The notes under the pieces: generated by a model
Seen by the model: only the letters and a program-made list of their open reading frames with translations
Database searches by the model: none
What the model was told of the DNA's origin: nothing
Program-made: the position numbers and the translations under genes
NCBI GenBank assembly: GCA_001791045.1
Contig: MGDT01000006.1
Location: 44,957-91,023, forward strand
Direction: 5' to 3'
From: Candidatus Uhrbacteria bacterium RIFCSPHIGHO2_01_FULL_63_20
Lineage (GTDB): Bacteria > Patescibacteriota > Patescibacteriia > UBA9934 > GWF2-40-263
Length of the DNA: 46,067 bases
Shown here: positions 1,934 to 24,868 of the stretch, piece by piece
Layout of the letters: each line of letters opens with the position of its first letter
Position numbering within the stretch: the first letter of the stretch is position 1

Positions 1934-1960
1934 AAGACGGCCCGCGAGGGTCGTCTTTCA
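1931..1960. terminator. hairpin between convergent genes (likely bidirectional terminator)
   Basis: TGAAAGACGGCCC-GCGA-GGGTCGTCTTTCA. Confidence 0.7.
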
Positions 1961-2854
1961 TGTTTCCGCGACGATGATCCGATCCACGCCGGAGAGGTCC
2001 TTCACGACACGCGGCGAGGCGGCGGGGAAGTCGTGGCGGATCATGGCGAGCGCCGCGTCCGCCTGGTCCGGGTCGATCTCGATGAGGACCGTGACGCGTT
2101 CGGGAAGGATTTCGCGGTTCGCCTTGAGGTAACGGAACAGCTGCCAGTAGCACTCAAGCCCGTCTGAACCGGCCACGAGCGCGGAGTGCGGTTCGTAATC
2201 CTTCACGTCCGGCTCGGCGCAGGCCACCTTTTCGGCGGTGAGGTAGGGGAGGTTCGCGCAAATGACCAGATGCTTTACGGGCGAGGAGCTTCCGAGTTTT
2301 CTGAAAATGGCGACGACCGGCTCGAGCAGGTTCCCGAGCCGGAAATCCACCTTGTCCGCGACGCCGAGCGCGGCGGCGTTCGATTCCGCGATGAACAGCG
2401 CGTCGCGGCTCACGTCGGTCGCGATCGCGTGAAGGCCGGTCTCAGCCGCGAGCGTGATCGCGATGGCGCCCGAGCCCGTGCCGATGTCGGCGAAGAGGGA
2501 GTTGGTATTTAGTATTTGGGAGTTGGCGTGAACGATTTTTACGGCTTCTTCGACGAGCGCCTCGGTCGCGGGGCGCGGGATGAGCGTGGCCGGCGTCACG
2601 CGGAACGTGCGGCCGAAGAATTCCTTCGTCCCGACCAGATGCGCCACGGGTTCGCGCTTGGCACGCCGGTTCACGAGGTCCGTGAAGGCCGTCTCCTCAT
2701 GCGCGCGTAACTCCTGGTCCAGATGCGAAAACACCCACGCCTTGTTCACCCGGACCGCATGGGACAACAGCACCTCGGCGTCGAGCATGGCCGACGCCGA
2801 CACGATCGGTTTCAATTTCCCGCTGGCCCACTGCAGGGCCTCGAATACGGTCAT
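1958..2854 (-). CDS. prmC: release factor glutamine methyltransferase PrmC/HemK
   Basis: RRAKREPVAHL, TLIPRPATE, DIGTGSG, NLPY, DYEPHSAL and KDLSG motifs. Confidence 0.95.
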   Translation of the reverse strand: MTVFEALQWASGKLKPIVSASAMLDAEVLLSHAVRVNKAWVFSHLDQELRAHEETAFTDLVNRRAKREPVAHLVGTKEFFGRTFRVTPATLIPRPATEALVEEAVKIVHANSQILNTNSLFADIGTGSGAIAITLAAETGLHAIATDVSRDALFIAESNAAALGVADKVDFRLGNLLEPVVAIFRKLGSSSPVKHLVICANLPYLTAEKVACAEPDVKDYEPHSALVAGSDGLECYWQLFRYLKANREILPERVTVLIEIDPDQADAALAMIRHDFPAASPRVVKDLSGVDRIIVAET

Positions 2855-2885
2855 GAGGCTCAACCTAGCAGGCGTTTAAGAAATT

Positions 2886-2913
2886 AAAAAGGGCTCGCAT
2901 TTCTGCGAAGCCC
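2886..2913 (-). terminator. intrinsic terminator of the large non-coding unit
   Basis: minus strand GGGCUUCGCA-GAAA-UGCGAGCCC followed by UUUUU. Confidence 0.8.
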
Positions 2914-3876
2914 AGATCCTTTCTTTCCGGAGTGTGTACCGGTTTATCGTCCCTTAAAGGTTTGAGACGGATTTGCGAAGCTGCAGGTTAACCCCACAGT
3001 CTCTTTCCATGAGCACCAGCCCCAGCCCTGCAAGCGACCACACCGTTACCCGTTCAGACGACCTCTTGCGAGCGTCCTACTGAGTTTACCGACATGTTGT
3101 TTGTGTCGCCTCGGACTCCTCCTCTTTGTTGCCGCCGAATCTGACCGGCGGGATTAGAGTTCGTGAGGAAACTGGCGTTCCCAGGTTACCCTGGAGATCG
3201 CATGACCCTGTCGCTTCAAAACCCGTTTTACCTACGGGCTCGTCCACGAAATTGAGGACTACGTTGTATACGCTCGCGAACTGGTGGGATTCCAGCTACG
3301 ACGTGGCGCTAAACCTGCCCTGAGCATGTCGCCATGCACCGAATAGGCCCAAGAGATATCCTCGAACAAGTGCCGAGCATGGTTTAAACGTCCTGCGAGT
3401 CACCCCGCAAAACATCCTCCACATCCGGCGAGCCGCCAAACCCATGGTAGGGTCCGTCGGACTCATGCGACCATCTTGCACATCCCCTTAACGGTTCTGT
3501 GCTTTCCATCAATCGAGCTTGCGCCCCACCTCGCTTTGTCAGTTTCCCACTACCACGGTTAGAGCCAGTGTAGTGGATATAGCGAGAGTGCCCCGTGCCT
3601 TCCAGGTTGCCCCAGAGAGACGGGAATCTTGATTGACGGACGATGGAAAGTAATCCCGAGATCATCCAGTGGCTTGTTAGCCACCGGCATCCCGGAATTT
3701 TTCGTTCATCTTTGAAGGTGCTTCTACATCCCACGACCTGACCCTCCGAAGGGCCAAGCGCAAGCGCAGGCACTCCTTCGGCGGCTCTAGGAGAAAGCTT
3801 GACGGCCCTATCGGTGTTGGGCTGCTGCGACCGAGTCTTTCGACCCTTCCGCATCGACTTTCCCTCTGCAGTGGTA
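2886..3876 (-). ncRNA. candidate ~1 kb large structured ncRNA (family unassigned; GOLLD/ROOL-like size class)
   Basis: no credible ORF; bounded by a promoter and a terminator; many GNRA-capped hairpins whose G-U pairs form only on the minus strand; long-range helix 3502-3514 with 3631-3650. Confidence 0.75.
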
Positions 3877-3882
3877 ACGAGT

Positions 3883-3911
3883 AGCTTACGCGTGATTTTG
3901 ACGCGGGTCAA
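3883..3911 (-). promoter_or_regulatory. sigma70-type promoter of the ncRNA candidate
   Basis: minus strand TTGACC-N17-TAAGCT; the spacer is itself an inverted repeat (CGCGT-N7-ACGCG). Confidence 0.7.
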
Positions 3912-3918
3912 GGGGTGG

Positions 3919-3940
3919 TTATCAACAATTCTGTGGATAA
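3919..3940. promoter_or_regulatory. inverted pair of DnaA-box-like 9-mers
   Basis: TTATCAACA (3919-3927) and TGTGGATAA (3932-3940). Confidence 0.45.
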
Positions 3941-3942
3941 CC

Positions 3943-4626
3943 TCACGCACACGCCTTTCGCGCGGCTTCGAGTTCGGTTGCAGTGCCCACCGGATGCCAG
4001 AATCCGGCCTCCTCGGTCCGGATGTCGACGTCTTTCGACATGGTGACGAGCGTGTGCGGGAGCCCGAGCTCGTGTTTTCCATGCACGTCGAAGCTCACCT
4101 GGATGAGCGGGTAATCGAAAAAGCGTTCATCGAGCACGTAGGCGCCGCACACCCGGATTTTCGTCTCTTGCTCGGGCGGAACGGACTCAAGTGCGCGGAA
4201 ACAGCCCTGTTCGTCCACGATCGCGGACACCAAGATCGGGAGTTTGGTGCGCTGGATGAGCATGCCGACCGGATGGGCGATCAAACGCTCTAGGTCCGGC
4301 TTGCTATAGAGGTCGTCGCCGTTCACCACGAGGAAGCGGTCGTGCAACAGATCCTTGGTGAGGAGAAGTGCGGCACCAGTCCCGTTGATGTCCTCCTGGA
4401 CGACGTAGCGGATCGGTTTGCCGCCGTGCTCCGTGCCGAAACGCGCGATGATCTGCTCGCGAAGATGTCCGACCACGATGATGATGTCGGTGATTTCGTC
4501 TGGAAGCGCGTCCAGAATGTGGCCAAGCAACGGCTTACCGCACAGGTCGACGAGCGCCTTGGGCGTGTCGTAGGTGAGCGGGCGCAGCCGCGTCCCTTTT
4601 CCGGCCGCGAGGATCACTGCTTGCAT
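3943..4626 (-). CDS. sugar-phosphate nucleotidyltransferase (NTP_transferase family)
   Basis: AVILAAGKGTRLRPLT..PK, GTGAAL and VVNGDD motifs. Confidence 0.9.
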   Translation of the reverse strand: MQAVILAAGKGTRLRPLTYDTPKALVDLCGKPLLGHILDALPDEITDIIIVVGHLREQIIARFGTEHGGKPIRYVVQEDINGTGAALLLTKDLLHDRFLVVNGDDLYSKPDLERLIAHPVGMLIQRTKLPILVSAIVDEQGCFRALESVPPEQETKIRVCGAYVLDERFFDYPLIQVSFDVHGKHELGLPHTLVTMSKDVDIRTEEAGFWHPVGTATELEAARKACA

Positions 4627-4647
4627 ACCTCAAGCTCTTCAAGCTCC

Positions 4648-5730
4648 TTAAGCTCCTTTCGACAACGCCTCGAAGCGCTCCTTGAGCTCGGCCGCCGTGA
4701 GTGCGTCGATGAGCGGGTCGAGGTCGCCGTTCATGATTCCCGGGATGTTGTGGAAATTCTCCCCGATGCGGTGGTCGGTGACGCGGTCCTGCGGGAAGTT
4801 GTACGTGCGGATCTTCTCGCTGCGGTCGCCCGAGCCGATTTGCGATTTGCGCTCCGCCGAACGTTCCTTGGCCGCCTTTTCCTGTTCGTACGCGAACACG
4901 CGGGCGCGCATGATCTGCATGGCCCGCTCGCGGTTCTGCGTCTGGCTGCGCTCGTCCTGGCACTGCACCGTGATGCCGGTGGGGAGGTGCGTCATGCGGA
5001 TGGCGGAATAGGTGGTGTTCACGCTCTGGCCGCCGGCGCCGCGGCTGGTGGACGTCTCGATCTTCAGGTCCTTGGGATCGAGGTCCACGTCGATTGCCTC
5101 GGCTTCAGGCATCACGGCGACGGTCGCGGTCGACGTGTGCACGCGTCCGGCCTTCTCGGTTTCCGGCACGCGCTGCACGCGATGCACGCCGGACTCGAAC
5201 TTGAGCATGGAATACACGTTCTTGCCGTCGATCTCTATCACCGCCTCCTTGAACCCGCCGGCCTCGCCGCGGCTCATGGTGACCGGCGACACCTTCCATC
5301 CTTGGCGCTCGGCGAACAGGGTGTAGGCGCGCAACAGGTCGCCGGCGAAGATCGCCGCTTCGTCGCCGCCCGTGCCCGCGCGGATTTCCATGATGATGTC
5401 CTTCTTGTCGAGCGGATCGGGAGGGAGGAGCGCGAGCGTGAACGCCTCCTCGAGTCTGGGGAGTTTCGCGGTCAGCTCGTCGATCTCGTCCTGGGCGAGC
5501 GCGCGCATGTCGGCTTCGGTCGACTCCGACAGCGTGGCCTTGGCGGATTCGAGCGCGCCCCGCGCGTCGGCATACCGCTGGCCGATCTCCACGAGCTCCT
5601 TCGCGTCCAGGTAGTCCGCGTTCACCACGCGGAGCTTTTTCGGATCAGCAAGAATGCCAGGCTCGGCAAGCCTGGCTTCGAGCTCGGCGACGCGTCCTCG
5701 CGCGCGTTCGAGTTCCTGGAGGAGATCCAT
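4648..5730 (-). CDS. prfA: peptide chain release factor 1
   Basis: GGQ motif, PET tripeptide in [17 protein letters not shown] and [15 protein letters not shown]. Confidence 0.97.
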
Positions 5731-6012
5731 CTAACCCTTCGCTTCCTTCTTGGAGACCTTGGCGGCCGCGCGCTTGGCGCGCTTCACCTTGGCACCGGTC
5801 GCGACCGTCGCCTTCTTGGTGGTGCGCGTCTGGAATTTTTCCACGCGGCGGGCGGAGTCGATGATCTTTTGCTTGCCCGAGTAGAACGGGTGGCAGGCGG
5901 CGCACAGCTCGACGGCGATCTCGGGCATGGTGGAACCGACCTCGTAGGCGGCCCCGCAGGCGCAGGAAATCTTGGCCTTGGGATGATATTCGGGGTGGAT
6001 GTCGGTCTTCAT
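5731..6012 (-). CDS. rpmE: 50S ribosomal protein L31 (zinc-binding type)
   Basis: MKTDIHPEY, CxC..CxxCHPFY and RVEKF motifs. Confidence 0.95.
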   Translation of the reverse strand: MKTDIHPEYHPKAKISCACGAAYEVGSTMPEIAVELCAACHPFYSGKQKIIDSARRVEKFQTRTTKKATVATGAKVKRAKRAAAKVSKKEAKG

Positions 6013-6088
6013 ATGCGGCGGAATGAATGGCGAAAATCTACCAGCGCACCCTTGAACTGTCAAGGATTTCGCGCTATCCTTCGTTCTC

Positions 6089-7153
6089 ATGCCCACCCCC
6101 GTCTCCCTCTACGATTACGCGCTTCCGGCCGAGCGCATCGCGCAATCCCCGGTCGAGCCGCGCGATTCCTCGCGCCTGTTGGCGTTGGACCGGAAAACGG
6201 GGAAGACCGAGCATAAGGTTTTTCGCGACATCGTGGACGAACTGAAGGCCGGAGACCTGCTGGTGATGAACGACTCGAAGGTCTTCAAGGCTCGGCTCCG
6301 GGGGAAGCGGTTCAAGAAGGAATACGAGGTGTTCCTGTTGCGCCCTGTCCCCCACGAGTTCGTGATGGAAGGGGCGTCGCTGTGGCACGCGCTCGTTCGC
6401 CCGGGAAAACTCGTCCACGTGGGGAATGACATCGAGATCAGCGGGTTGAAACCCAAGGTGGTCGAAAAGAAACCGGATGGCTCCGTCGTGCTCGCGTTCC
6501 CGATTCCGGAATCAGAGGTGTTCGCGTTCTGCGACCAGTTCGGCGAAGTGCCCGTGCCGCCATACGTCGAGAAAGCACCCGAGGATGCGTCGAAGTATCA
6601 AACGGTGTACGCGAAGGAGACGGGCTCGGTCGCTGCCCCGACGGCCGGGTTTCATTTCACGCCGGAGATCATCGAGAAACTGAAAGGGAAGGGAGTCGAG
6701 TTCCAGTTCGTCACGCTGCACGTAGGCCTCGGCACGTTCCGGCCAGTGAAGGCGGAGACGCTCGAAGAGCATGTCATGCACAGCGAGTATGTGACGATTT
6801 CGTCCGAGACGGCACAAGCGATTAACAAGGCAAAAGCCGAAGGCCGCCGCGTCATCGCCGTCGGCACGACCACCGTCCGCGCCCTCGAAGGCGTCGCCTC
6901 AACCCAGCCCCCAGCTCCCAGCCCCCAGCTCCCAACGAACGGTTACTCCGGCGACGTGAACATGTTCATCACCCCCGGCTTCGACTTCAAAGTCATCGAC
7001 GCCCTCATCACCAATTTCCATCTTCCCAAATCCACGCTGCTCGTGCTCGTGTCCGCCTTCGCCGGCCGGGAGCACGTCCTGGCGGCATATAAGGAGGCCA
7101 TCGAGAAGGAATATCGGTTCTATTCGTTCGGAGACGCGATGTTTATTCGTTAG
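6089..7153 (+). CDS. queA: S-adenosylmethionine:tRNA ribosyltransferase-isomerase
   Basis: GSVAAPTAGFHFT, TLHVGLGTF, VGTTTVRALE, TNFHLPKSTL and YRFYSFGDAM motifs. Confidence 0.97.
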   Translation: MPTPVSLYDYALPAERIAQSPVEPRDSSRLLALDRKTGKTEHKVFRDIVDELKAGDLLVMNDSKVFKARLRGKRFKKEYEVFLLRPVPHEFVMEGASLWHALVRPGKLVHVGNDIEISGLKPKVVEKKPDGSVVLAFPIPESEVFAFCDQFGEVPVPPYVEKAPEDASKYQTVYAKETGSVAAPTAGFHFTPEIIEKLKGKGVEFQFVTLHVGLGTFRPVKAETLEEHVMHSEYVTISSETAQAINKAKAEGRRVIAVGTTTVRALEGVASTQPPAPSPQLPTNGYSGDVNMFITPGFDFKVIDALITNFHLPKSTLLVLVSAFAGREHVLAAYKEAIEKEYRFYSFGDAMFIR

Positions 7154-24780: not shown

Positions 24781-24868
24781 ACAAGGGCTCAAGGTTGGCC
24801 AAGAAACGGTTGGGTGTGGATAACTTTTCGAACACAGGGCAGGGGACTTGCTACTCTTCTCGCACCTT

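What the first reader, a model, noticed from the sequence alone, without database searches (positions are those of the whole stretch)
2886..3876. Stand-alone ~1 kb structured non-coding RNA with its own promoter and terminator
Seen: a ~1 kb gap in an otherwise gene-dense region, with no ORF showing the genome's GC3 codon bias. On the minus strand it starts after TTGACC-N17-TAAGCT (3911-3883) and ends in a GAAA-capped hairpin plus U5 (2913-2886). Inside are GNRA-capped stems: GGGUC-GAAA-GACUC (3833-3846), UCUGGG-GCAA-CCUGGA (3601-3616), UGCGGG-GUGA-CUCGCA (3394-3409), GCAUG-GCGA-CAUGC (3324-3337), CCAGG-GUAA-CCUGG (3181-3194) and CUC-GCAA-GAG (3063-3072). There is also a 9-bp stem (3666-3687), a CUUG loop (3758-3767) and a long-range helix (3502-3514 with 3631-3650). 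The tetraloops and G-U wobbles work only on the minus strand. Known: bacterial ncRNAs of several hundred nt or more outside rRNA are rare (GOLLD, ROOL, OLE, self-splicing introns). Inference: this is a divergent member of such a class or a new giant RNA, retained in a reduced CPR-like genome between translation genes and with no tRNA, phage or intron context.
Basis: partly seen in the sequence, partly recalled or inferred. Interest (0 to 1): 0.93.

Follow-up and report, generated by a model that had tools for sequence, protein, structure and literature searches.

The report
Fast-evolving one-kilobase folded RNA gene
The gene-free kilobase between the translation genes prfA and prmC of this ultra-small bacterium is most likely a stand-alone gene for a very large, heavily folded non-coding RNA that matches no known RNA family, has counterparts at the same spot in sister genera, and has no known function.

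Summary
Window 2886-3876 (minus strand) has stops of all three kinds in all six frames and flat codon-position GC. A TTGACC-N17-TAAGCT promoter precedes it and a GAAA-capped hairpin plus U5 ends it. The minus strand folds far better than shuffles (z -8.2; plus strand -2.0) and carries 7 GNRA-capped hairpins (0.9 expected; antisense 0). Rfam 15 gives no match. RNase P RNA and tmRNA lie elsewhere.

The body has no detectable homologue, not even in the one same-genus genome, where RNase P RNA is 89% identical. That genome keeps the architecture: an inverted DnaA-box pair, the same promoter, about 950 ORF-free bases and a terminator, all before prmC. In 17 of 29 family genomes examined, a promoter and a 400-1400-nt ORF-free unit precede prmC. 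In two sister genera these RNAs align within the genus. They are about 75% identical where 4-fold sites are 37-45% identical, and they show 19 and 25 compensatory pairs (slid controls 3-5).

prmC has its own extended -10 box 7 nt before its ATG, so this is not its leader.

Verdict: a real, undescribed large RNA gene at a fixed locus that evolves fast. The fold of this copy has no covariation support and the function is unknown.

The parts
3919..3940 (-). Inverted pair of DnaA-box-like 9-mers (TTATCCACA at 3940-3932 on the minus strand; TTATCAACA at 3919-3927 on the plus strand), 7 nt upstream of the -35
   Evidence: One search gives a perfect box plus a 1-mismatch box. Both are conserved in same-genus G001. 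A box lies within 60 nt upstream of the -35 in 13 of the 17 syntenic units.
3883..3911 (-). Sigma-70-type promoter TTGACC-N17-TAAGCT of the RNA gene
   Evidence: Read. The block GGTTATCCACAGAA..TTGAC..TAAGCT is conserved in G001 while the body is not. The consensus scan does not call it.
2886..3878 (-). Body of the roughly 990-nt structured non-coding RNA (the start is inferred 5-8 nt after the -10; the 3' end is the U-tract)
   Evidence: z -8.2 against -2.0 for the other strand. 7 GNRA hairpins against 0.89 expected. No coding signal. No Rfam match. Contigs from an RNA library lie on 3363-3649 only.
2886..2913 (-). Intrinsic terminator: a 9-bp stem with one bulge, a GAAA loop and U5
   Evidence: G001 and the g3 and g7 RNAs end in comparable hairpin plus U-tract terminators.
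2862..2870 (-). Extended -10 box TGCTAGGTT of prmC, 7 nt before its ATG (2854-2852). prmC is therefore probably leaderless and transcribed on its own.
   Evidence: A TGnTAnnnT box lies 6-17 nt before the prmC match in L004, L005, L009, L011, L014, L016 and L019.
3943..4626 (-). Upstream neighbour: NTP_transferase-family gene (227 aa); prfA is at 4648-5730 and rpmE at 5731-6096
   Evidence: Pfam PF00483 at 9e-19; PCRF/RF-1 and Ribosomal_L31.
1958..2854 (-). Downstream neighbour: prmC (release-factor glutamine methyltransferase)
   Evidence: PrmC_N at 3e-18 plus methyltransferase domains. Found in 41 of 41 genomes searched, G000 included.

Best explanation
Window 2886-3878 (minus strand) is a stand-alone gene for a roughly 990-nt, highly base-paired, GNRA-tetraloop-rich non-coding RNA.

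Shown:
- It lies on the same strand as rpmE-prfA-NTP_transferase upstream and prmC downstream.
- It has its own TTGACC-N17-TAAGCT promoter, preceded by an inverted pair of DnaA boxes, and its own intrinsic terminator.
- prmC restarts from its own extended -10 box right after that terminator.
- The locus is kept in one family of ultra-small (CPR-like) bacteria.
- The sister-genus RNAs at this locus are under purifying selection and keep their helices through compensatory changes.
- They also gain and lose whole hairpins, so sequence similarity is gone between genera.

Inferred:
- The RNA is an abundant, stable, compactly folded molecule. Its function depends on its architecture (many tetraloop-capped helices on a multi-branched core) rather than on a long conserved sequence.
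- It most likely serves as a scaffold or multivalent binding platform, either an RNP or an RNA-only assembly.
- Its synthesis is probably tuned by DnaA binding at about -45 to -66, which would tie it to replication or growth state.
- The function itself is not known.

The confidence given is for the identity as a functional stand-alone RNA gene. The scaffold mechanism alone I put at about 0.2.
For: (1) Non-coding: stops of all three kinds occur in all six frames and codon-position GC is flat. No gap ORF has a Pfam match. ORFs of the syntenic gaps share no similarity among 14 relatives and W (blastp).

(2) Strand-specific structure: z is -8.2 against -2.0, while 7 coding controls give +0.4 to -2.6. 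There are 7 GNRA hairpins against 0.89 expected, with 0 of 300 shuffles reaching 7, and 0 on the antisense strand.

(3) Transcription unit: promoter and terminator were read, and the terminator was also found. The box-promoter block is the only part conserved with same-genus G001 (39 nt, 85%; alignment). G001 has the same layout, with about 950 ORF-free bases between prfA and prmC.

(4) The locus is kept. Of 29 family-f1 genomes examined, 17 have a TTGAC-N16-18-TAnnnT promoter followed by a 400-1400-nt unit before prmC, 6 have a gene directly adjacent and 6 are unclear. None of 5 genomes from other families have the unit. Of the 10 units folded, the sense-strand z is -4.0 to -13.1 and is more negative than the antisense z in 9.

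(5) Selection and covariation in sister genera:
- g7, 3 of 3 species: 308 pairs, 95.6% paired, 19 pairs changed on both sides against 3-5 in slid controls, 0 of 500 shuffles.
- g3, 5 of 8 species: 132 pairs, 93% paired, 25 compensatory pairs against 4-5, and 0 of 500 shuffles on four of five measures.
- Mean column identity of the RNA alignments is 77% and 74%, where 4-fold sites of prmC are 45% and 37% identical.
- Substitutions show no 3-periodicity.

(6) It is not a prmC leader: TGCTAGGTT lies 7 nt before the prmC ATG, and similar boxes occur in 7 relatives.

(7) Expression hint: in one soil metatranscriptome the only near-identical contigs (2 of 151 nt, about 97% identical) lie on 3363-3649, with none on the flanking genes. 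The variant at 3395 turns a G-C pair into G-U in the GUGA-capped stem.

(8) It is not a known RNA: Rfam is negative. RNase P RNA (165 bits) and tmRNA (109 bits) lie on other contigs.
Against: - No homologue of the body was found. blastn finds none in 60 relatives or in the 73-genome family. nhmmer finds none in the syntenic loci. The chain of shared 7-mers with G001 scores 12 against 9.6+-1.6 (p about 0.11). RNase P RNA of the same two genomes is 89% identical.
- A single-sequence covariance model of the 5' 185 nt finds nothing in 17 syntenic loci (best E 0.24).
- A model of the g7 core finds only g7, plus one 58-position partial match in G024 on another contig.
- No 8-10-mer is shared across 12 RNAs (about ten genera) beyond shuffles.
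- Homology between genera therefore rests on position and promoter only, and the fold of this copy has no covariation support.
- The 5' start motif (CGTTACCGTC-like) also follows other promoters of this genome, so it is not family-specific.
- G001 is not enriched in GNRA hairpins (2 against 0.9).
- The global MFE fold is unstable.
- The -10 is weak by the E. coli consensus.
- RNA evidence is contigs at depth 2 in one library, which may hold DNA.
- One genus has a member without the unit (G035).
Confidence: 0.7

Rival explanations
1. The kilobase is a very long cis-acting leader (attenuator) of prmC. Transcription starts at the DnaA-box promoter, and the GAAA hairpin plus U5 is a regulated terminator that decides whether prmC is transcribed.
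For: The unit lies on the same strand as prmC and directly upstream of it in W and in the 17 syntenic units. In W the terminator ends only 31 nt before the ATG.
Against: prmC has an extended -10 box, TGCTAGGTT, 7 nt before its ATG, and comparable boxes occur in 7 relatives. In G007 about 290 nt separate the terminator from prmC, against about 80 in G033. No riboswitch or leader family matches. By my own knowledge, 1 kb is several times the size of any described attenuator. Genomes with prfA directly next to prmC manage without the unit.
Confidence: 0.08
2. The stretch is non-functional spacer DNA: the relic of an insertion or a decayed gene that happens to be transcribed. Its foldability would come from accumulated hairpins, not from selection.
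For: The body is unalignable with the same-genus genome. No motif is shared across genera. Unit length varies from about 400 to 1400 nt. One same-genus pair differs by presence or absence.
Against: The genome is 863 kb and dense, yet the unit is kept in 17 of 29 family genomes examined. Sister-genus RNAs are about 75% identical where 4-fold sites are 37-45% identical. Compensatory pairs are 4-6 times the slid controls. Structure and GNRA or UUCG caps are confined to the sense strand. No residual codon periodicity is present.
Confidence: 0.1
3. The functional element is the DNA: a DnaA-binding locus (origin-like, or datA/DARS-like titration or reactivation site). The transcript would be incidental.
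For: A perfect DnaA box sits next to an inverted 1-mismatch box. This pair is the best-conserved part of the locus. TTATCCACA occurs 20 times in 863 kb.
Against: The kilobase holds only two boxes, both at the promoter. GC is about 0.55 with no AT-rich unwinding stretch. dnaA and a three-box cluster lie on another contig (C4:182 kb and 197 kb). Ten box-plus-promoter units exist in the genome, most in front of ordinary genes. A DNA-level role does not explain strand-specific folding or covariation.
Confidence: 0.03
4. The region is a mobile or self-splicing element remnant (an ORF-less group II or group I intron, a retroelement RNA) or a phage- or plasmid-derived RNA.
For: Its size and GNRA richness resemble introns, and the GC drop to 0.55 against 0.65 could suggest foreign DNA.
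Against: No intron or other Rfam model matches, even at E<=10. There is a single copy in the genome. The flanking genes are intact and not interrupted. No tRNA, repeat or integrase lies nearby. There is no phage or plasmid match. The position is fixed across genera. A lower GC than the coding average is also usual for structured RNA genes of GC-rich genomes (own knowledge).
Confidence: 0.03

Closest known systems
Orphan large 'ornate' bacterial RNAs: GOLLD, ROOL, OLE (from PMC12286853 I saw only the search listing and the start of the abstract; the rest is own knowledge)
   Same: A stand-alone gene several hundred to about 1000 nt long, densely base-paired, with many GNRA-capped helices, no coding capacity and no known function. 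At about 990 nt it is at or above the size of GOLLD.
   Different: No match to any of their Rfam models. Those classes keep highly conserved nucleotides across wide taxonomic ranges. Here, sequence similarity is lost between genera and even within genus g1. The locus is fixed between prfA and prmC, not phage- or tRNA-associated. The host is a CPR-like bacterium.
6S RNA and Ms1 RNA (RNA-polymerase-binding stable RNAs)
   Same: An abundant-type stable-RNA gene layout with its own promoter and terminator. Structure is kept while sequence drifts fast. The promoter architecture is shared with another stable-RNA candidate of this genome.
   Different: It is three to five times larger and multi-branched rather than one long hairpin with a central bubble. 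The Rfam 6S model finds nothing in the genome. A separate hairpin RNA of about 250 nt on contig C8 is the better 6S-like candidate.
Protein-sponge RNAs such as CsrB/RsmZ (own knowledge)
   Same: A modular array of hairpins whose number changes quickly in evolution, with little sequence conservation outside short loop motifs.
   Different: No CsrA gene was found in this 98%-complete genome. The enriched words are structural tetraloops (UUCGG, CGCAA, GCAAG), not a binding motif. Within a genus, long multi-branched cores are strongly conserved.
DnaA-box-preceded large RNA genes noted earlier in this scan (e1-1282752, e1-806056, e1-1059415 in CPR lineages; e1-4548028, e1-5205666 in Alphaproteobacteria)
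   Same: An ORF-free unit with a consensus-like promoter preceded by DnaA boxes, a heavily folded RNA absent from Rfam, and a lineage-specific fixed neighbour gene.
   Different: Those RNAs are 335-620 nt and are reported as conserved families. This one is about 1 kb and not alignable between genera. No sequence relation was found: the look-alike look-up returned nothing. These are unchecked AI notes, used as leads only.

Membership tests
GOLLD / ROOL / OLE / HEARO and every other Rfam 15 family | Match to the family covariance model at its gathering score | tested here: not met
   cmscan of the whole window gave 0 matches at gathering score. In 2700-4100 at E<=10 there were only two chance-level matches on the opposite (plus) strand, at E 1 and 6.9. 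Twenty syntenic loci gave 0 matches.
GOLLD / ROOL / OLE | Blocks of nucleotides conserved across distant members | tested here: not met
   No 8-10-mer is shared by the 12 RNAs (about ten genera) beyond shuffles. The g7 core model hits only g7 apart from one 58-position partial match. The W 5' model hits nothing.
Group I / group II introns | Catalytic-core model match, and interruption of a host gene or an intron-encoded ORF | tested here: not met
   No Rfam intron model matches at E<=10. The flanking NTP_transferase gene and prmC are complete. No ORF in the gap has a Pfam domain.
RNase P RNA / tmRNA | Model match; a single essential copy per genome | tested here: not met
   Both are found elsewhere: C4:98617-99047 (165 bits) and C3:9156-9556 (109 bits). 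ARAGORN finds none in the window.
6S / Ms1-type RNA | Model match, about 180-300 nt, a long helix with a central open-promoter-like bubble | tested here: not met
   RF00013 finds nothing in the genome. The length is about 990 nt and the fold is multi-branched. Binding to RNA polymerase cannot be tested here.
Riboswitch / attenuator leader of prmC | The downstream gene depends on read-through and has no promoter of its own | tested here: not met
   The extended -10 box TGCTAGGTT lies 7 nt before the prmC ATG, and similar boxes occur in 7 relatives. This is a sequence inference only; no 5'-end data exist.
oriC / datA / DARS-type DnaA loci | A cluster of several DnaA boxes, with an AT-rich unwinding element for oriC | tested here: not met
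   Two boxes only, both at the promoter. GC is about 0.55 throughout. dnaA and a three-box cluster lie on contig C4.
Stand-alone structured ncRNA gene (generic) | No coding signal; strand-specific thermodynamic structure above background | tested here: met
Stand-alone structured ncRNA gene (generic) | Compensatory base changes in homologues | tested here: inconclusive
   This is met for the syntenic RNAs of genera g7 and g3. It cannot be tested for this copy, because no alignable homologue exists. One strain variant is pair-preserving.
Stand-alone structured ncRNA gene (generic) | A discrete transcript of the predicted strand and ends | tested here: inconclusive
   Two 151-nt contigs of one RNA library lie on 3363-3649 only. 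Contigs show neither strand nor ends, and DNA carry-over is possible.

The most novel reading that the evidence does not exclude
One family of ultra-small CPR bacteria keeps, at a fixed locus between prfA and prmC, a DnaA-controlled gene for a 'giant' (0.4-1.2 kb) stable RNA. This RNA evolves by swapping whole tetraloop-capped hairpins around a genus-specific core. That would be a new class of large bacterial RNA whose function lies in architecture and valency, for example an RNA-only assembly or RNP scaffold tied to the replication cycle. This 990-nt copy would be one of the largest bacterial non-ribosomal RNAs.
Probability: 0.4. Interest if true: 0.85.

Novelty: new variant of a known kind. 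Interest (0 to 1): 0.72.

Why it matters
Non-ribosomal bacterial RNAs approaching 1 kb are very rare, and each one found so far (OLE, GOLLD, ROOL) has proved structurally surprising. A streamlined 863-kb genome that spends more than 0.1% of its DNA on such an RNA, at a locus kept across most of a family, argues for an important but unknown role in organisms that cannot yet be grown alone.

The mode of evolution is unusual for a large structured RNA. Pairing and cores are kept within a genus, whole hairpins turn over, and no similarity is left between genera. This mode explains why homology-based RNA discovery misses such genes. The DnaA-box promoter adds a testable link between replication control and a stable RNA.

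Tried and rejected
- Similarity searches for the 1-kb body: blastn in the own genome (single copy), in 60 relatives and in all 73 family genomes. nhmmer over the syntenic loci found nothing. Only the 39-nt box-promoter block of G001 matched.
- All-against-all blastn and Smith-Waterman of the upstream regions aligned only the flanking genes and short 15-45-nt stretches without collinearity.
- The 9-mer ACAAAGCGA, seen in two RNAs, is not a shared motif.
- A profile HMM of the g7 RNA found nothing in other genera. The covariance model R1 of the g7 core found g7 only, plus one 58-position match in G024 on another contig.
- The single-sequence model R2 of the W 5' domain gave a best E of 0.24.
- Structure-aware MAFFT is not installed.
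- The metagenome scan with PrmC returned only relatives of <=39% identity, so no closer copies of the RNA were obtained.
- Complementarity of the RNA to the rest of the genome is at most 15 nt, which is chance level.
- CsrA sponge idea: no CsrA gene.
- A second box-promoter unit with a long gap (C4:188206) turned out to be a short hairpin followed by a low-GC coiled-coil ORF, not a second large RNA.
- Alternative genetic codes are ruled out because all three stop codons occur in every frame.
- Runs X3, X4 and X6 hold only 100%-identical fragments of the same organism and gave no variants. Uncovered parts in the contig tables carry no weight.
- Literature searches (listings and abstract starts only) returned no paper on a large RNA of CPR/Patescibacteria or on an RNA between prfA and prmC. 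Papers outside the held library were not searched.
- Earlier-findings look-ups by place, by look-alikes and by eight words returned nothing.
Full report
**What is there.** The window is G000:C6:44957-91023 of an 863-kb, 8-contig, 98%-complete genome. On the minus strand the gene order is:
- rpmE (5731-6096)
- prfA (4648-5730)
- an NTP_transferase-family gene (3943-4626)
- the flagged gap
- prmC (ATG at 2854; 1958-2854)

- TTGACC (3911-3906), a 17-nt spacer, then TAAGCT (3888-3883).
- The hairpin GGGCUUCGCA-GAAA-UGCGAGCCC (2913-2891) followed by U5 (2890-2886), which the terminator scan also found.
- The GNRA-, CUUG- and long-stem hairpins.
- The 3502-3514 / 3631-3650 helix.

The strict consensus promoter scan does not call the promoter, because TAAGCT matches TATAAT at only 3 of 6 positions.

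**It is not coding.**
- All six frames carry 7-13 stops, and all three stop codons occur in each frame, so no single reassignment opens a frame.
- GC at codon positions 1/2/3 is flat (0.52-0.59), against GC3 of 0.79-0.87 in the three neighbouring genes.
- The 232-aa ORF at 3384-4082 is an out-of-frame run-on from the end of the NTP_transferase gene and has no Pfam match. The other four gap ORFs scanned have none either.
- Regional GC falls from about 0.65 to about 0.55.

**It is structured on one strand, beyond chance.**
- The minus strand folds to -418.6 kcal/mol (z -8.2; 0 of 20 shuffles as good). The plus strand gives -335.9 (z -2.0). My own run with 12 shuffles gave -5.7 and -1.6.
- Seven 990-nt coding segments of the same genome gave z +0.4 to -2.6, mean -0.8.
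- Hairpins of at least 4 bp capped by GNRA number 7 on the minus strand against 0.89 expected (0 of 300 shuffles) and 0 on the plus strand.
- The outer, long-range part of the MFE fold is not robust. Adding six 5' bases changes it. Only the local helices should be trusted.

**It is not a known RNA.**
- Rfam 15 (4227 models) gives nothing at gathering score in the window.
- At E<=10 in 2700-4100 there are only two chance-level matches, both on the opposite (plus) strand.
- Twenty syntenic loci of relatives give nothing.
- ARAGORN finds no tRNA or tmRNA in the window.
- RNase P RNA and tmRNA lie on other contigs. The 6S model finds nothing in the genome.
- There is no similarity to 50,697 phage or 72,556 plasmid records.
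- The element is single-copy.

**Comparative picture.** The body has no detectable relative:
- blastn finds none in 60 relatives or in all 73 genomes of the family.
- nhmmer finds none in the syntenic loci.
- The best collinear chain of shared 7-mers with the only same-genus genome, G001, scores 12 against 9.6+-1.6 in shuffles (p about 0.11).
- For scale, RNase P RNA of these two genomes is 89% identical over 431 nt, and PrmC is 70% identical.

The layout, however, is kept. In G001, prfA is followed by these elements, in order:
- GGTTATCCACAGAA-TGT-G-TAAC, an inverted DnaA-box pair
- TTGAC-N17-TAAGCT
- about 950 ORF-free bases
- a GAAA-capped hairpin terminator
- prmC

The 39-nt box-promoter block is the only blastn match (85%).

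Of 29 family-f1 genomes whose prmC upstream region I read:
- 17 have a TTGAC-N16-18-TAnnnT promoter followed by a 400-1400-nt unit without a prfA or NTP_transferase homologue.
- 6 have a gene directly adjacent (prfA in four, NTP_transferase in G035, another ORF in G002).
- 6 are unclear or cut by contig ends.

None of 5 genomes from other families of the order has the unit. A DnaA-type box with at most 1 mismatch lies within 60 nt upstream of the -35 in 13 of the 17. ORFs of these gaps share no protein similarity.

Of the 10 units folded, including this one, the sense-strand z is -4.0 to -13.1 and is more negative than the antisense z in 9; L012 is a tie. GNRA caps are enriched on the sense strand in 7 of the 14 units tested (W, L004, L009, L010, L017, L020, L021) and not in the other 7, G001 among them. 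Pooled over 11 RNAs, the most over-represented 5-mers are tetraloop words: TTCGG, CGCAA, GCAAG and CTTCG.

**Selection and covariation where alignment is possible.** Two sister genera have several species each.

| | Genus g7 | Genus g3 |
|---|---|---|
| Species with the RNA | G007, G063, G033: 3 of 3 | 5 of 8 |
| RNA identity (mean column identity) | 77% for G007/G033; blastn pieces 75-78% | 74% for G003/G031 |
| Identity at 4-fold sites of the adjacent prmC | 45% | 37% |
| RNAalifold pairs | 308 | 132 |
| Cells that form a standard pair | 95.6% | 93% |
| Pairs changed on both sides | 19 | 25 |
| Same count with 3' partners slid by 1-3 columns | 3-5 | 4-5 |
| Column shuffles reaching the observed values | 0 of 500 on all five measures | 0 of 500 on four measures; 243 of 500 on further pair types |

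In g3, a 20-pair long-range helix carries 6 compensatory pairs. These structures were derived from the same alignments, which favours them against the controls. Even so, the margins are large.

Substitutions show no 3-periodicity, and no jointly open frame is longer than 42 codons. Species differ by insertions and deletions of whole hairpins, while core blocks reach about 93% identity. This hairpin turnover is a sufficient reason for the loss of alignability at the g1 distance.

No family-wide core could be shown:
- A covariance model of the g7 core hits g7 only, plus a 58-position partial match elsewhere in G024.
- A single-sequence model of this RNA's 5' 185 nt hits nothing (best E 0.24).
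- No 8-10-mer is shared beyond shuffles.

**Stand-alone gene or leader of prmC.** Directly after the terminator comes TGCTAGGTT (2870-2862), an extended -10 box. It ends 7 nt before the prmC ATG, which predicts a leaderless prmC mRNA. Comparable TGnTAnnnT boxes lie 6-17 nt before the prmC match in 7 relatives. In G007 the terminator is about 290 nt from prmC, and in G033 about 80 nt. This argues for an independent RNA gene. It remains a sequence inference without 5'-end data.

**The DnaA boxes.**
- TTATCCACA occurs 20 times in the genome. My own estimate from base composition expects about 2.
- Ten box-plus-promoter units exist, most in front of ordinary genes.
- dnaA (C4:182 kb) and a three-box cluster (C4:197 kb) lie on another contig.
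- The kilobase itself has only the two promoter boxes and no AT-rich stretch. It is therefore not an origin.
- The boxes sit at about -45 to -66, a position from which DnaA could act as a transcription factor. That role is inferred.
- The CGTTACCGTC-like start of the transcripts is not specific to this RNA. Similar words follow the promoters of a 6S-like hairpin RNA, of RNase P RNA and of rpsP.

**Expression.** Nine public runs hold parts of the stretch, and two of them may be the source of the assembly. In the one RNA library (a soil metatranscriptome), the only near-identical records are two 151-nt contigs, each with 5 differences and depth 2, on 3363-3513 and 3499-3649. None lies on about 1.8 kb of flanking genes. 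A third piece of 38 nt at 2460-2497 belongs to another organism. Of the listed differences, 3395 G>A on the plus strand turns a G-C pair into G-U in the GUGA-capped stem. This is a weak hint only: contigs give neither strand nor ends, and DNA may be present in the library.

**Reading.** The best explanation is a real, stand-alone gene for a roughly 990-nt structured RNA of an undescribed, locus-fixed and fast-evolving kind.

How it works is inferred from three features: many tetraloop-capped helices on multi-branched cores, conservation of pairing, and free exchange of hairpin modules. Together these point to a scaffold or multivalent platform (an RNP or an RNA-only assembly) rather than a sequence-specific guide or ribozyme core. 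The DnaA boxes would tie its synthesis to replication or growth state.

I put about 0.7 on the identity as a functional RNA gene and much less, about 0.2, on the scaffold mechanism.

Earlier notes of this scan describe other DnaA-box-preceded large RNA genes in CPR and alphaproteobacterial lineages. I used them only as leads, and no sequence link was found.

The four literature searches returned nothing on such an RNA. I saw only search listings and abstract starts.

Noticed in passing
G000:C8:about 4600-4890 (minus strand), outside the window: A roughly 250-nt RNA-like unit. It has TTGACA-N17-TATATT preceded by a 1-mismatch DnaA box, a start GCGTTACCGTT, one very long imperfect hairpin and a hairpin plus U-tract terminator. 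It looks 6S-like, but the Rfam 6S model finds nothing in the genome.
   Followed up: partly
whole genome G000; in the window at 3932-3940 and 24815-24823: The perfect DnaA box TTATCCACA occurs 20 times in 863 kb, mostly just upstream of -35 elements. Ten box-plus-promoter units were found, which suggests DnaA acts as a broad transcription factor in this reduced genome.
   Followed up: partly
window 2852-2870: prmC appears to be leaderless. The extended -10 box TGCTAGGTT ends 7 nt before the ATG, there is no Shine-Dalgarno sequence, and the same arrangement occurs in several relatives.
   Followed up: partly
L068 (G035) against L023 (G016): Within one genus, one species has the NTP_transferase gene directly next to prmC, with no RNA unit. 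Another has a unit of about 590 nt. The locus can therefore be lost or gained at short evolutionary range.
   Followed up: no
A4 columns 51-86, 228-282, 470-680, 759-796; A8 columns 240-340, 490-590: Species of one genus differ by clean insertions or deletions of one or two complete tetraloop-capped hairpins inside otherwise conserved RNA, a modular mode of RNA evolution.
   Followed up: partly
G000:C4:187374-188206 (locus L089): Another DnaA-box promoter is followed by a 45-nt hairpin plus U-tract. Then comes a low-GC3 ORF of about 105 aa with a coiled-coil-like sequence and no obvious family. It is not an RNA gene.
   Followed up: partly
G000:C4:98500-98620: The RNase P RNA promoter (TTGACC-N17-TAATCT) carries a DnaA-box-like TTATCCATG inside its spacer, and the RNA starts CCGTCGG. 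This resembles the start motif of the other stable-RNA candidates.
   Followed up: no
G000:C6:4463-10725, outside the window: A 6.3-kb stretch with GC 0.44 in a 0.65-GC genome, left uncovered by high-GC3 ORFs. It may be foreign DNA or an rRNA or other RNA region.
   Followed up: no
L006 (G015), upstream of prmC: The syntenic RNA unit of this genome is interrupted by a run of N in the sequence as served, so it was left out of the folding, word and alignment tests.
   Followed up: no
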